A stretch of DNA of 42,756 nt from a virus (taxonomy: Duplodnaviria; Heunggongvirae; Uroviricota; Caudoviricetes), in the IMG/VR virus record IMGVR_UViG_2778261067_000008, positions 1 through 42,756 of that record; one strand, given 5' to 3'. The position numbers are program-made. Each line of letters opens with the position of its first letter. Within the stretch, counting starts at the first letter, position 1. Below are positions 39,001 through 42,000 of the stretch, piece by piece.

Positions 39001-42000
39001 GAAAGACATATCAGGGATTTGGTTTTCCCCGTTGCCCACATTCCGTTTTGCCGCTTCTCCCAAACCAACCTTTCAAATATTTTTCTGAATCAGGTGATAT
39101 TTCGCCTCTTCTCCTGTTTTTACAACAGGAGAAGCACTCATGATTTACGGGTATGTTCGTGTATCAACAAATCATCAGGATACAGAGTTGCAACGTCTTG
39201 CACTTGAGTCAGCTGGCTGTGAGCGAATTTATGAAGAATATGCCAGTGGCAGAACAGCTAATCGCCCTGTGTTAAAGGAATTAATTTCGGTGATGAAAAG
39301 TGGAGATGAGTTGATTGTCTGGAAGCTAGATCGGATAGGGAGAAATGTGCTACATGCGCTATTGATGTTTCAAAATCTGCACGAAAAAGGCGTTAATTTT
39401 CGGAGTATTACAGATGGTGTAGACCTGAAAACAGCAAGTGGTCGCTATAATTTCCGTAATATTCTTTCTGCTGCGCAGTATGAATCTGATTTGAATAGCG
39501 AGCGAACTTTAGCTGGTTTGGCTATTGCCAGATCCAAAGGCCGGATTGGTGGGCGTAGACCGAAGTTTAGCGACGAGCAGTGGCAACAGATGGGAGCGCT
39601 CATAGCGGCAGGGAAATCACGGCGTTATGTTGCACGTATCTATAACGTTGGGCTATCAACCCTATATAAACGATTTCCTGTTACTGGCATTCAAACGAAA
39701 TAATTTAAAAGCAATTTAAAGAGTTATTTGTCTAATGTTGGAAGCCGCAGCCACGTCGTATGCAAGAACGTGCTGCGGCTGGCTGGCGAACTTTCGATAG
39801 TGCGAGTATTGAATGATTTCCAGCCGTTACCGATTTTACGTGTTAATTAGTGAACAAACCACTCGTCAGCAGATTCCCAGGTATCTTTCAGAGTCTCCTG
39901 AACAAAAGTTTTTGCAGAATCCTTATCTGCGGTGCGTGTAACAGAAAGGCCATCGTTGCTGGTGGCTTTTACGATCACCTCTACATCGTCATAACGTTTA
40001 CTGATGCGTCGGGTTAATTCTTCCTTTAACGCATCCACAGCACCGGTTGGCATTTTAGTCATTTTTTCTTTGGCTATGCAGATTTCAATACGCATAAAAG
40101 TCCCTCTATACTGTGTTTGTATACAGTGTTATTTTTAACTGTATGGATAAACAGTGTCAAGAGGTCTTATTTCTGCTCCTTTGGAGCTCTTCAAAACGAT
40201 TATGTAAAGATTTCGGATACAGTTCGGTATATACCTGCCATAGCACGTTTAATGAACGATGCCCTGTGACCTGGGCGACTTCCTCAATACTAAAACCAGC
40301 CTCAAATAAGCGACTTGCCCCTTCTCTACGCAAATCATGGTATCGCAGATCCTTAATACCTAATTTGCTTCTTACCCTCTGAAATCCCGCAGTAACAGAA
40401 GTGCTGTTATATGGAAAAATGAATTCCGATTTTTTGGGCTGTCGTTGGACGATATCCCAGGCTTCCCCAAGCAAGGCTACTTTCATGTGGTTGCCTTCCT
40501 TTTTGCGTGGATCTTTCCTGTCTCTTACGAGTATAGATTTTTGTTCCTGGTCGAGATCTTCCCATCGTAACCGGCATACTTCTCCGATCCGCATACAGGA
40601 CCACACAGAAAATTTGAGGATATCAACGAACGGAATTTTTGAGCATTTATGAGTAGATCGTTGTTGAAGGCCTTCAATGAGCATGTCCAGTTCATCAGAT
40701 GCTGGTCTACGATTACGACGGTTTGATTTACCAATCAAACCAAGTTTAAGTAGATATGGGCGAGCGCTTTTCGCCGGGTTTGATGTGTAATTAATTCCGT
40801 ATACAGGTTTGGCCGCATCCAGAACACTGCCAAGATAACTAACATCGTGGCTGACTGTTGCTGGACCTGCACCAGCGTTGTTTCTTAGCCTGCAATGTTC
40901 AATTACGTCATTTTCTGTCAGTTCAGATAGTTTGATCGCGGAGATGTCACTATCCATAAGCAGTTCCAGCACATATCTTTTAGTACGGCCTGCTTTACCT
41001 CCGGCATTTGGGTCATTTAAATATTTGTGTAGTAAGTCACGGACTGTAAGTCCGTCAACTGCATTTGATGATGGAATGCCATATAGATCTAATTCCATCA
41101 CTTTCTGTGTTCCCCATGTTTTGGCATGAGCATGTTTAGGGAATGTTTTGCTTTCCCTGTAAGTGATAACACCTTTTTCTTTGATAATCACATTACAGCG
41201 ATAGCGTGGTGTGCCATCGGATTTTAGTCGTTTCTCTATGTTATAGTACGCCATTACACGACCTCGTTATTTCGGGTTCCCATAAAACGTGGGAACCTGT
41301 GCGGGAACCTAACGCGAGAAAAATAGCCTGAAATGTTCAAAAATGCACGATAATCATGAAACACAAAAAATTAATCAAACCAGCGTGATGCCTGAAAAAA
41401 CTGGTGTTTGCTGGAATTCTCGGTTTAGCATTGCTCCTATGCTCGACTGGACGGACAGGCACTGCCGTTATTTCCTGCGTCTGCTTTCCCGCAATACGTT
41501 GCTGTATACAGAAATGGTGACCACAGGGGCGATTATTCACGGTAAAGGTGATTACCTGGCGTACAGTGAAGAAGAACATCCGGTAGCGTTGCAACTGGGC
41601 GGTAGCGATCCGGCGGCGCTGGCGCAGTGTGCGAAGCTGGCAGAAACGCGCGGATATGATGAGATCAACCTGAATGTCGGCTGCCCGTCTGACCGGGTAC
41701 AGAACGGCATGTTTGGTGCGTGCCTGATGGGCAATGCGCAGCTGGTTGCCGACTGCGTGAAAGCGATGCGCGATGTCGTATCGATTCCGGTGACGGTGAA
41801 AACGCGTATTGGCATCGATGACCAGGACAGCTATGAATTTCTCTGCGATTTCATCAACACCGTTTCCGGCAAAGGCGAGTGTGAGATGTTCATCATCCAC
41901 GCACGTAAAGCCTGGCTTTCTGGGTTAAGCCCGAAAGAAAACCGTGAAATCCCGCCGCTCGATTATCCGCGTGTGTATCAACTGAAGCGCGACTTTCCGC

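What the first reader, a model, noticed from the sequence alone, without database searches (positions are those of the whole stretch)
39108..39134. Perfect 11-bp hairpin occluding the ribosome-binding site of the invertase gene
CTTCTCCTGTT-TTTAC-AACAGGAGAAG lies immediately upstream of the invertase ATG, and its right arm contains the AGGAG ribosome-binding site. It could limit invertase translation, stop read-through from the invertible segment, or serve as a protein-binding palindrome.
Basis: seen in the sequence. Interest (0 to 1): 0.45.

Follow-up and report, generated by a model that had tools for sequence, protein, structure and literature searches.

The report
Hairpin masking the invertase ribosome-binding site
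A perfect 11-base-pair hairpin buries the ribosome-binding site of a prophage DNA-invertase gene and is strongly conserved in related phages, so it most likely keeps invertase, and therefore tail-fibre switching, at a very low level; this is an ordinary kind of control that seems not to have been noted for this gene family.

Summary
CTTCTCCTGTT-TTTAC-AACAGGAGAAG lies at 39108-39134. The AGGAG Shine-Dalgarno (39127-39131) is in the 3' arm, 8 nt before the ATG of a Resolvase+HTH_7 invertase (39140-39703). The hairpin sits between the right crossover site of a 1.9-kb invertible tail-fibre segment (39055-80) and the gene. Perfect hairpins of at least 11 bp occur twice in the window, against 0.095 expected. 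Freeing this ribosome-binding site costs 15.5 kcal/mol, the highest of 53 gene starts (median 3.8). Across 16 distinct relatives from several enterobacterial genera, both arms are almost invariant (0.01-0.02 differences per site). The loop, spacer and flank diverge by 0.17-0.40. Other Din-invertase lineages (Fin, P2-like, P1 cin) place their Shine-Dalgarno in unrelated hairpins with sense-strand G·U pairs; e14 pinE is weak and Mu gin lacks it. Formal covariation is weak, with one compensatory pair. Best reading: a constitutive mRNA lock on invertase translation, predicted to cost about 100-fold or more, comparable to the IS200 transposase leader. It is not an intrinsic terminator, a crossover-like invertase site, a LexA box or a thermometer. 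The transcription start is unknown, so it may act mainly on read-through transcripts. Novelty: a new member of a known kind.

The parts
39108..39118 (+). 5' arm of the hairpin (CTTCTCCTGTT); contains the anti-Shine-Dalgarno CUCCU
   Evidence: (I20). Mean pairwise difference is 0.023 per site among 16 distinct relatives, against 0.40 in the 5' flank.
39119..39123 (+). Loop TTTAC (variants TTCAT, TTCAC, TTTAT in relatives)
   Evidence: The loop is more variable than the arms (0.17 per site).
39124..39134 (+). 3' arm of the hairpin (AACAGGAGAAG); holds the Shine-Dalgarno AGGAG at 39127-39131
   Evidence: Mean pairwise difference is 0.011 per site. The predicted anti-SD duplex is -7.4 kcal/mol, against about -15.4 for the hairpin.
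39140..39703 (+). Din-family serine DNA invertase gene (187 aa), the gene whose ribosome-binding site is masked
   Evidence: Pfam Resolvase and HTH_7. It is 99.5% identical to the phage SKA5 invertase, 79% to the HK225 invertase, and 51-55% to Mu Gin, P1 Cin and P2-like invertases. At the DNA level it matches phi80 pinL at 79.7%.
39093..39106 (+). Second, small stem-loop GGTGA-TATT-TCGCC just upstream (A39092/T39107 may add a pair). Stems are conserved and the loop is variable. It overlaps a -10-like GATATT (39096-39101).
   Evidence: Stem difference is 0.088 against 0.425 in the loop. U.G/C-G and G-C/G.U alternations are seen.
39055..39080 (+). Right crossover site of the invertible segment (TTCTCCCAAACC-AA-CCTTTCAAATAT); its outer half overlaps a -35-like TTCAAA (39072-39077)
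   Evidence: (I1), (the inner half scores in the top 0.002% of window 12-mers).
37122..37147 (+). Left crossover site (CTCTCGAAAACC-TT-GGTTTGGGAGAA) inside the tail-fibre gene 36845-37594
   Evidence: I1; sequence printed; ORFs; Collar domain; tail-fibre assembly genes on both strands inside the segment.
39149..39276 (+). Probable recombinational (Fis) enhancer inside the 5' part of the invertase gene
   Evidence: This is the only stretch of the gene that matches P1/P7 cin at the DNA level (71-73%), and it falls on their annotated 'enhancer' (H33-H40; P1 annotation). The hairpin therefore lies in the roughly 90-bp stretch between the crossover site and the enhancer.

Best explanation
The inverted repeat is a cis-acting mRNA element. 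In the invertase transcript, the 11-bp stem (about -15 kcal/mol) pairs the Shine-Dalgarno AGGAG and its neighbours with an upstream anti-Shine-Dalgarno. The 30S subunit must therefore melt a helix about twice as stable as its own contact with the mRNA. Translation initiation is thus held constitutively very low, predicted at about 100-fold or more below an unstructured leader. This keeps the invertase scarce and inversion of the tail-fibre segment rare. It also makes any transcript that reads into the gene from the tail-fibre operon translationally silent. Shown: the hairpin exists; the Shine-Dalgarno is inside it; the opening cost is exceptional; both arms are under purifying selection; analogous hairpins occur in other invertase lineages. 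Inferred: that the 5' arm is transcribed with the gene, and that the helix lowers translation in vivo.
For: The hairpin is present in both the MFE and centroid folds, z = -3.84. Opening nucleotides -16 to -5 costs 15.5 kcal/mol, the highest of 53 ORF starts in the window (median 3.8, next 11.0). Only 4 of 500 shuffles of the 5' part reach that value. Replacing the 5' arm by its complement raises the ensemble energy by 11.3 kcal/mol, which is about 160-fold in the usual thermodynamic initiation model (the model is recalled from memory). The anti-SD duplex is only -7.4 kcal/mol. The same hairpin is present in 79 IMG/VR loci and in Kluyvera, Trabulsiella, Pseudocitrobacter, Shimwellia, Apirhabdus and Citrobacter-phage relatives at 78-100% protein identity. 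Arm divergence is 0.011-0.023 per site, against 0.17 (loop), 0.27 (spacer), 0.40 (flank), 0.069 (codon position 2) and 0.50 (codon position 3). The one variable pair changes C-G to U-A on both sides. Other lineages place the Shine-Dalgarno in the 3' arm of differently sequenced hairpins: Fin/mEpX1, P2-like Cartapus/pro483, P1 cin and the Erwinia/Kluyvera type. These use G.U pairs that exist only in the sense strand, and the sense fold is more stable than the antisense fold in all 41 Fin-type leaders, in P1 cin and in most P2-like/e14-type leaders. The closest documented analogue is the IS200 tnpA leader, where a stem-loop sequesters a near-perfect Shine-Dalgarno and blocks 30S binding (PMC4513863).
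Against: The transcription start is unmapped. A weak promoter-like TTCAAA-18-GATATT, positionally conserved in 6 of 8 variants, would start transcripts at about 39103-39108, at the very edge of the 5' arm. If initiation falls inside the arm, the gene's own mRNA would escape the lock. Formal covariation is weak: 9 of 12 pairs never vary, there is only one compensatory pair, and the shuffle controls are not significant (30/500; Fin class 90/500). Within this clade, conservation therefore cannot separate an RNA helix from a DNA palindrome. The feature is not universal: e14 pinE, Mu gin and a P88-like invertase show opening costs no higher than shuffles. No expression or probing data were available.
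Confidence: 0.68

Rival explanations
1. Read-through insulation (IS10-type 'fold-back inhibition'). The invertase's own weak promoter starts at or within the 5' arm, so its transcripts lack a full stem and are translatable. Transcripts entering from the late tail-fibre operon through the invertible segment carry both arms and are locked. The hairpin would then uncouple invertase synthesis from late transcription rather than throttle it constitutively.
For: No + strand terminator is predicted between the tail-fibre genes and the invertase, apart from a weak in-gene hit at 37715, so read-through is plausible. The promoter-like TTCAAA-18-GATATT places a start at about 39103-39108, adjacent to the arm. 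In the P1 record, the predicted P1cin -10 (locus 457-462) ends 5 nt before the cin hairpin. In P2-like, e14 and Mu leaders, a conserved TGGCATCAT (extended -10-like) overlaps the 5' arm. The mechanism itself is established for IS10 (recalled from memory; not checked in the library).
Against: All promoter calls are weak consensus matches at chance frequency. The GAYNYT hexamer includes the most variable positions of the upstream stem-loop, and in one variant type it lacks the key final T. The conserved stem with a variable loop in the upstream mini-hairpin looks like a transcribed RNA element, which would put the start further upstream.
Confidence: 0.2
2. DNA-level palindrome bound by a dimeric protein. 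Candidates are the invertase itself acting as autorepressor at a pseudo-crossover site (outer TTCTCC motifs as in the real site), a phage or host regulator, or an HU-favoured distortion in the short loop between crossover site and enhancer.
For: In this clade the repeat is a perfect palindrome with no wobble pairs, and it is more conserved than codon second positions. CTTCTCC is identical to the first 7 nt of the inner crossover half-site. The element lies in the roughly 90-bp segment that must loop between the crossover site and the enhancer, and Hin needs HU for its ~100-bp loop (PMC3798978).
Against: The halves lack the A-tract found at positions 8-10 of nearly all 66 distinct crossover half-sites, and they score only in the top 10% of window 12-mers, against the top 0.002% for the real inner half (the PWM is partly circular at positions 8-12). 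The total length is 25 bp, not 26. P2-like invertases use the same crossover sequence, but their hairpin arms are ATCATCYCC/GGGGGATGAT, so the shared TTCTCC is better explained as the complement of the Shine-Dalgarno. In sister lineages the DNA palindrome is imperfect while the RNA helix is intact. The spacing is CTG-N9-CAG, not the LexA CTG-N10-CAG (direct reading).
Confidence: 0.09
3. Intrinsic transcription terminator, or a chance repeat with no function.
For: It is a stable stem-loop located between two transcription units.
Against: No U-run follows the stem on either strand (GCACUCAUG on +, AGAGGCGAAAU on -), and the scans do not call it. By contrast, the window's other perfect hairpin at 1043-1073 has TTTTTT after the stem. 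Chance is excluded by 0.095 expected per window and by conservation across genera.
Confidence: 0.03

Closest known systems
IS200 tnpA 5'UTR stem-loop (Salmonella/E. coli)
   Same: A recombinase gene with a near-consensus Shine-Dalgarno buried in a leader stem-loop. This blocks 30S binding and keeps DNA rearrangement rare (PMC4513863).
   Different: The IS200 stem is long and imperfect (nt 69-138), and it works together with an antisense sRNA (art200) and Hfq. Here the hairpin is a short perfect 11-bp stem. No antisense RNA is shown; there is only a chance-level antisense promoter-like match at 39167-39140. The gene is a serine invertase, not a transposase.
IS10/Tn10 fold-back inhibition of externally initiated transposase transcripts
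   Same: A 5' sequence pairs with the ribosome-binding site only in transcripts that start upstream, which protects the element from outside promoters. The geometry here is compatible with this, because the candidate start lies at the edge of the 5' arm.
   Different: The transcription start here is unmapped, so it is unknown whether the gene's own mRNA escapes.
Translationally inert primary transcripts of type I toxins (dinQ, hok)
   Same: Leader structure makes the full-length mRNA untranslatable (dinQ abstract, PMC5066626, listed).
   Different: Those are activated by 5' processing into an alternative fold. No alternative pairing partner or processing signal was found here.
'IR3' annotated in the phage phi80 genome record (JX871397) upstream of pinL
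   Same: It is the identical 11-bp inverted repeat at the identical position before a 79.7%-identical (DNA) invertase gene.
   Different: The record labels it only as a repeat region, with no function given. The phi80 genome paper could not be read. phi80 keeps the hairpin even though its tail-fibre segment is reduced to a pseudogene remnant.
Resolvase autoregulation at res (Tn3/gamma-delta)
   Same: This is another way a serine recombinase limits its own synthesis through sites next to its gene. Here the -35-like element overlaps the crossover site.
   Different: That mechanism is transcriptional and works through protein-DNA binding. The hairpin halves do not resemble invertase half-sites. 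The comparison rests on recall.

Membership tests
Cis-acting RBS-sequestering mRNA hairpin (translational attenuator) | Shine-Dalgarno and/or start codon base-paired within a local stem that lies inside the 30S footprint | tested here: met
   AGGAG (39127-39131) lies wholly in the 3' arm, and the stem ends 5 nt before the AUG.
Cis-acting RBS-sequestering mRNA hairpin (translational attenuator) | Helix stability exceeds the SD:anti-SD interaction and is unusual compared with other genes | tested here: met
   The hairpin is -15.4 kcal/mol against -7.4 for the anti-SD duplex. The opening cost of 15.5 kcal/mol is the highest of 53 gene starts, and 4 of 500 shuffles reach it.
Cis-acting RBS-sequestering mRNA hairpin (translational attenuator) | Pairing maintained in evolution (conservation of both arms, compensatory or wobble changes) | tested here: inconclusive
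   Both arms are nearly invariant while the loop, spacer and flanks diverge. Only one compensatory pair is seen, and the shuffle controls are not significant. Support across lineages is qualitative.
Cis-acting RBS-sequestering mRNA hairpin (translational attenuator) | Both arms are present in the mRNA (transcription starts upstream of the 5' arm) | not testable with these tools
   Only weak promoter-like matches were found, with the candidate start at 39103-39108. No transcript data were available.
Cis-acting RBS-sequestering mRNA hairpin (translational attenuator) | Stem-disrupting mutations raise translation and compensatory mutations restore repression | not testable with these tools
   This needs reporter fusions. 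Only an in-silico ddG of 11.3 kcal/mol is available.
Intrinsic (Rho-independent) terminator | G+C-rich stem followed directly by a U-run | tested here: not met
   There is no T-run after the stem on either strand, and the scans do not report it.
Din-invertase crossover site (hix/gix/cix/pix) | 26 bp: two 12-bp half-sites with an A-tract at positions 8-10 around a 2-bp core | tested here: not met
   The palindrome is 25 bp between its outer TT residues. Positions 8-10 are GTT. PWM scores are -7.7 and -7.4 (top 10% of 12-mers), against 18.3 for the real inner half.
LexA (SOS) box | CTG-N10-CAG palindrome | tested here: not met
   CTG at 39114-39116 and CAG at 39126-39128 are separated by 9 nt. 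The consensus is recalled from memory.
RNA thermometer | RBS helix that melts between about 30 and 42 C | tested here: not met
   The stem is predicted to remain fully formed from 25 to 70 C (-13.9 kcal/mol at 42 C).
Any curated Rfam family | Match to a covariance model | tested here: not met
   No hit overlaps 39085-39145 even at E <= 10.
Din family of serine DNA invertases (the downstream gene and its system) | Resolvase catalytic domain plus C-terminal HTH; inverted 26-bp crossover sites flanking alternative tail-fibre ends; enhancer in the 5' coding region | tested here: met
   Pfam domains. Crossover sites at 37122-47 and 39055-80 with matching AA/TT cores. Opposed tail-fibre and assembly ORFs. 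DNA match to the annotated P1/P7 cin enhancer. Fis binding itself was not tested.

The most novel reading that the evidence does not exclude
The hairpin is not merely a constant brake but a decision point. Either it discriminates between transcripts, so that the gene's own promoter starts at or inside the 5' arm and only those mRNAs are translated, uncoupling invertase from late tail-fibre read-through. Or it is opened or bound by a trans-acting factor (a protein or an antisense RNA from the opposite strand of the palindrome), so that the frequency of host-range switching is regulated. The near-absolute sequence invariance of both arms, with not even neutral G.U substitutions across genera, would then reflect sequence-specific recognition.
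Probability: 0.15. Interest if true: 0.55.

Novelty: new member of a known kind. Interest (0 to 1): 0.3.

Why it matters
DNA invertases of the Gin/Cin/Pin/Hin family must be kept scarce so that tail-fibre (host-range) switching is rare and heritable. How their low level is set is usually attributed to weak promoters. A conserved, very stable lock on the ribosome-binding site would add a simple post-transcriptional explanation. It would explain why read-through from the late tail-fibre operon need not raise inversion. It would also give a handle for tuning inversion rates in engineered invertase switches. The comparison across lineages suggests alternative routes to the same end: a strong hairpin with an AUG start here, and no hairpin with a GUG start in Mu. 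If the reading is wrong, little is lost; the element is small and its kind is well known.

Tried and rejected
1. Upstream ORF coupling. A 31-codon ORF (39048-39143) runs through the hairpin and ends in ATGA, overlapping the invertase start. In HK225-type relatives the same frame has TAA and TGA stops and no start codon (sequences), so coupling is rejected.

2. Invertase pseudo-site. Rejected on the PWM score, the length and the behaviour of sister lineages.

3. LexA box. The spacing is N9, not N10.

4. Thermometer. The stem is predicted stable to 70 C.

5. Rfam. No family matches.

6. The distant 11-nt complement at 37850-37860 (I18). About one such pair is expected by chance in 3 kb, so it was dropped.

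7. RNAalifold on the Fin-class leaders chose a U-tract/A-tract helix instead of the Shine-Dalgarno hairpin. The Shine-Dalgarno hairpin had to be specified by hand, and it shows 90% pairing but no significant covariation.

8. One MAFFT alignment across lineages shows the leaders are homologous, but it shifts the helix register by one column between clades. It could not be used for a joint pair count.

9. Pattern scans for stem variants. CCTGTTTTNNNAACAGG in viral contigs and AGGAGAA-N4-7-ATGATTTA in metagenomes were too unspecific.

10. Literature. The phi80 genome paper, the P1 genome paper and an E. coli TSS atlas are not held. Full-text searches found no description of a ribosome-binding-site hairpin for Din invertases. 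The 1980s primary papers are not in the library, so prior mention cannot be excluded.
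Full report
**Observation**

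Arms 39108-39118 (CTTCTCCTGTT) and 39124-39134 (AACAGGAGAAG) are perfectly complementary around the loop TTTAC (pair I20). AGGAG lies at 39127-39131, and the ATG of ORF 39140-39703 follows 8 nt later. That ORF is a serine DNA invertase (Pfam Resolvase 2e-36, HTH_7 7e-12).

The hairpin dominates the predicted fold of the leader. The 117-nt region folds at -33 kcal/mol with z = -3.84. The hairpin alone is about -15 kcal/mol as RNA and -10.7 as DNA. Perfect hairpins of at least 11 bp with 3-10 nt loops occur twice in the window, against 0.095 expected from dinucleotide-preserving shuffles. The other one, at 1043-1073, is a classical terminator with a T-run.

**Context**

The window carries a prophage tail module with an invertible tail-fibre segment. 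The 26-bp crossover sites lie at 37122-37147 and 39055-39080, with complementary TT/AA cores. They flank opposed pairs of tail-fibre C-termini and tail-fibre assembly genes. The hairpin sits between the right crossover site and the invertase gene.

The only part of the invertase gene that matches P1/P7 cin at the DNA level (window 39149-39276) coincides with their annotated recombinational enhancer. The hairpin therefore lies in the short stretch that must loop between the crossover site and the enhancer. For comparison, Hin uses a ~100-bp HU-assisted loop (PMC3798978).

The prophage is nearly identical to Escherichia phage SKA5 over the invertase gene and its leader (99.1% DNA, 99.5% protein). 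It occurs in 111 of 5426 complete E. coli genomes.

**How unusual the masking is**

I computed the free-energy cost of forcing nucleotides -16 to -5 open for 53 non-overlapping ORF starts in the window. The invertase is the extreme at 15.5 kcal/mol, against a median of 3.8 and a next-highest value of 11.0. Shuffling the 27 nt upstream while keeping the Shine-Dalgarno segment reaches this value in 4 of 500 trials.

Replacing the 5' arm with its complement raises the ensemble energy by 11.3 kcal/mol. That is roughly 160-fold in the standard thermodynamic initiation model (the model is recalled from memory). The SD:anti-SD duplex is worth only -7.4 kcal/mol. The stem is predicted intact from 25 to 70 C, so it is not a thermometer.

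**Conservation**

The identical or near-identical hairpin precedes the invertase in these relatives, at 78-100% protein identity:

- phi80, where the GenBank record already marks it as repeat 'IR3' without a function;
- mEp237, HK225 and Citrobacter phage Omnitron;
- 79 IMG/VR loci;
- Kluyvera, Trabulsiella, Pseudocitrobacter, Shimwellia and Apirhabdus genomes.

Among 16 distinct leaders, the mean pairwise difference per site is as follows:

| Region | Difference per site |
|---|---|
| 5' arm | 0.023 |
| 3' arm | 0.011 |
| Loop | 0.17 |
| Spacer before the ATG | 0.27 |
| 5' flank | 0.40 |
| Codon position 2 | 0.069 |
| Codon position 3 | 0.50 |

The Shine-Dalgarno function explains conservation of 5 nt of the 3' arm. 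It does not explain the 5' arm.

The only variable pair switches C-G to U-A on both sides, and one locus (L071) breaks a pair. Formal covariation is therefore weak. Nine of twelve pairs never vary, and 30 of 500 shuffles match the observed score. Within this clade the data show selection on the inverted repeat, but they do not by themselves say whether it acts as RNA or as DNA.

**Other invertase lineages**

The leaders of P2-like, e14 and Mu invertases are visibly homologous to this one around TCTCC-GTTTTT-CAGGAG.

- P2-like genes (Cartapus, pro483) pair AUCAUCUCC with GGGGGAUGAU.
- Fin/mEpX1-type genes pair UUCACCUGAU with AUUGGGUGAA.
- P1 cin pairs GCUUGCUAU with AUAGUGAGC.
- An Erwinia/Kluyvera type closes AGCCUUA/UAAGGCU around GGAG, with UUA/UAA changing to UGA/UCA.

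In each of these the Shine-Dalgarno is inside the helix. These helices contain U.G pairs that exist only in the sense strand. The sense fold is more stable than the antisense fold in all 41 Fin-type leaders, in P1 cin and in most P2-like/e14-type leaders. Substitutions such as C-G to U.G to U-A occur. This favours an RNA helix over a protein-binding DNA palindrome at the family level.

The strength varies between lineages:

| Leader | Opening cost (kcal/mol) |
|---|---|
| HK225 type | 16.0 |
| Fin | 11.5 |
| P1 cin | 8.8 |
| Cartapus | 8.8 |
| e14-type, K-12 pinE-type, Mu gin, P88-like | 2.6-6.0 (not above shuffles) |

Mu keeps the loop and 3' arm but has GGCG where e14 has CCTG, and it starts with GTG. 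Masking is therefore common but not universal. The element studied here is among the strongest forms, essentially tied with the HK225-type variant of the same hairpin.

**Mechanism**

The best-supported reading is a constitutive translational lock. The 30S subunit has to melt a helix twice as stable as its own anchoring contact, so invertase is made rarely and inversion stays infrequent. The closest documented analogue is the IS200 transposase leader. There, a stem-loop sequesters a near-consensus Shine-Dalgarno, inhibits 30S binding, and raises expression when disrupted (PMC4513863).

The main open step is where transcription starts. No consensus promoter is called upstream on the + strand. 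A weak TTCAAA-18-GATATT arrangement is positionally conserved in 6 of 8 variants. Its -35 lies in the outer half of the crossover site, and it would start RNA at about 39103-39108, right at the 5' arm. The predicted P1cin promoter in the P1 record has the same geometry relative to the cin hairpin.

If initiation falls inside the arm, the gene's own mRNA would escape. The hairpin would then mainly silence transcripts reading in from the tail-fibre operon, for which no convincing + strand terminator is predicted. That is the IS10 'fold-back inhibition' logic (recalled from memory).

Against this, a second small stem-loop (GGYGA-N4-UCGCC, 39093-39106) shows conserved stems, a variable loop and U.G/C-G alternation. 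This looks like a transcribed element and would put the start further upstream. I rate the constitutive lock at about 0.68 and the insulation variant at about 0.2. They are not mutually exclusive in effect.

**Rivals rejected or down-weighted**

- **Terminator:** there is no U-run on either strand, and the scans do not call it.
- **Invertase pseudo-site:** CTTCTCC matches the start of the inner crossover half-site. However, the halves lack the A-tract found at positions 8-10 of nearly all 66 distinct half-sites, and they score only in the top 10% of window 12-mers (that PWM is partly circular at positions 8-12). The palindrome is 25 bp, not 26. P2-like invertases with the same crossover sequence have different arm sequences. 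The shared TTCTCC is therefore best read as the complement of GGAGAA.
- **LexA box:** the spacing is CTG-N9-CAG.
- **Upstream ORF coupling:** the ORF is not conserved.
- **Known RNA family:** none.

**Novelty**

Shine-Dalgarno-sequestering hairpins are a well-known class. I found no description of one for Din-family invertases in the searchable library. The element is annotated only as 'IR3' in phi80. The original 1980s papers on gin, cin, pin and hin, and the phi80 and P1 genome papers, could not be read, so an earlier mention cannot be ruled out.

I classify it as a new member of a known kind, of modest interest. It is a correct observation with a sensible interpretation, and it can be tested with simple reporter and 5'-end mapping experiments.

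Noticed in passing
window 39093-39106 (A39092/T39107 may extend it): A second small stem-loop, GGTGA-TATT-TCGCC, lies directly upstream of the main hairpin. In relatives the stems are conserved (0.088 per site), the loop is free to vary (0.425), and U.G/C-G alternation occurs. It overlaps the -10-like GATATT. Its role is unknown; it could be a 5' stabiliser or part of a promoter.
   Followed up: partly
L087 (phage Mu, NC_000929 35017-35094) compared with L095 (E. coli K-12 e14 pinE leader): The Mu gin leader is homologous to the e14 and P2-like leaders, but its 5' arm reads GGCG instead of CCTG, so the Shine-Dalgarno hairpin is lost. Mu also uses a GTG start. This may be an alternative way of keeping the invertase level low.
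   Followed up: partly
window 39149-39276: This is the only part of the invertase gene with DNA similarity to P1/P7 cin (71-73%), and it coincides with their annotated recombinational enhancer. It is probably the Fis-dependent enhancer of this system.
   Followed up: partly
window 39167-39140, minus strand: A promoter-like TTGATA-16-AATCAT on the antisense strand overlaps the invertase start codon and points through the palindrome into the invertible segment. It could give an antisense RNA carrying the same hairpin. However, both hexamers are fixed by the coding sequence (the catalytic VST motif and Met-Ile), and such matches occur at chance frequency.
   Followed up: no
window 39048-39143, plus strand: A 31-codon ORF runs through the crossover site and hairpin and ends in ATGA, overlapping the invertase ATG. 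The frame is interrupted by stops in HK225-type relatives, so it is probably fortuitous.
   Followed up: yes
window 1043-1073: This is the window's only other perfect hairpin of at least 11 bp: AAAAGAACCCAA-CATTGC-TTGGGTTCTTTT, with A-run and T-run flanks. It is a textbook bidirectional intrinsic terminator.
   Followed up: partly
window 39744-39783: A long G+C-rich hairpin (GCCGCAGCCACG...CGTGCTGCGGC) lies between the convergent invertase (+) and DinI-like (39847-40095, -) genes. It is a likely shared terminator. A weak sub-threshold Rfam hit to the CssrB sRNA (E = 0.044) falls here.
   Followed up: partly
window 40157-41254 (-) and 41343-42380 (+): A tyrosine-integrase-like ORF lies next to an ORF whose translation looks like tRNA-dihydrouridine synthase DusA (recognised by eye; not tested). 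The prophage end may therefore lie at a dusA-type integration site, with a DinI homologue (Pfam DinI) between invertase and integrase.
   Followed up: no
L001 (phi80 JX871397 23683-23945): phi80 keeps the right crossover site, the hairpin and pinL with a leader identical to the window, although the adjoining tail-collar gene is only an internal pseudogene fragment and no invertible segment remains.
   Followed up: partly
L176-L255 (Fin/mEpX1-type leaders), positions -45 to -40: An invariant GATAAC lies immediately 5' of the Fin-type hairpin, and a similar GATAAC/GCTAAC occurs in P2-like leaders. It may be a -10-like element or a binding site conserved across invertase lineages.
   Followed up: no
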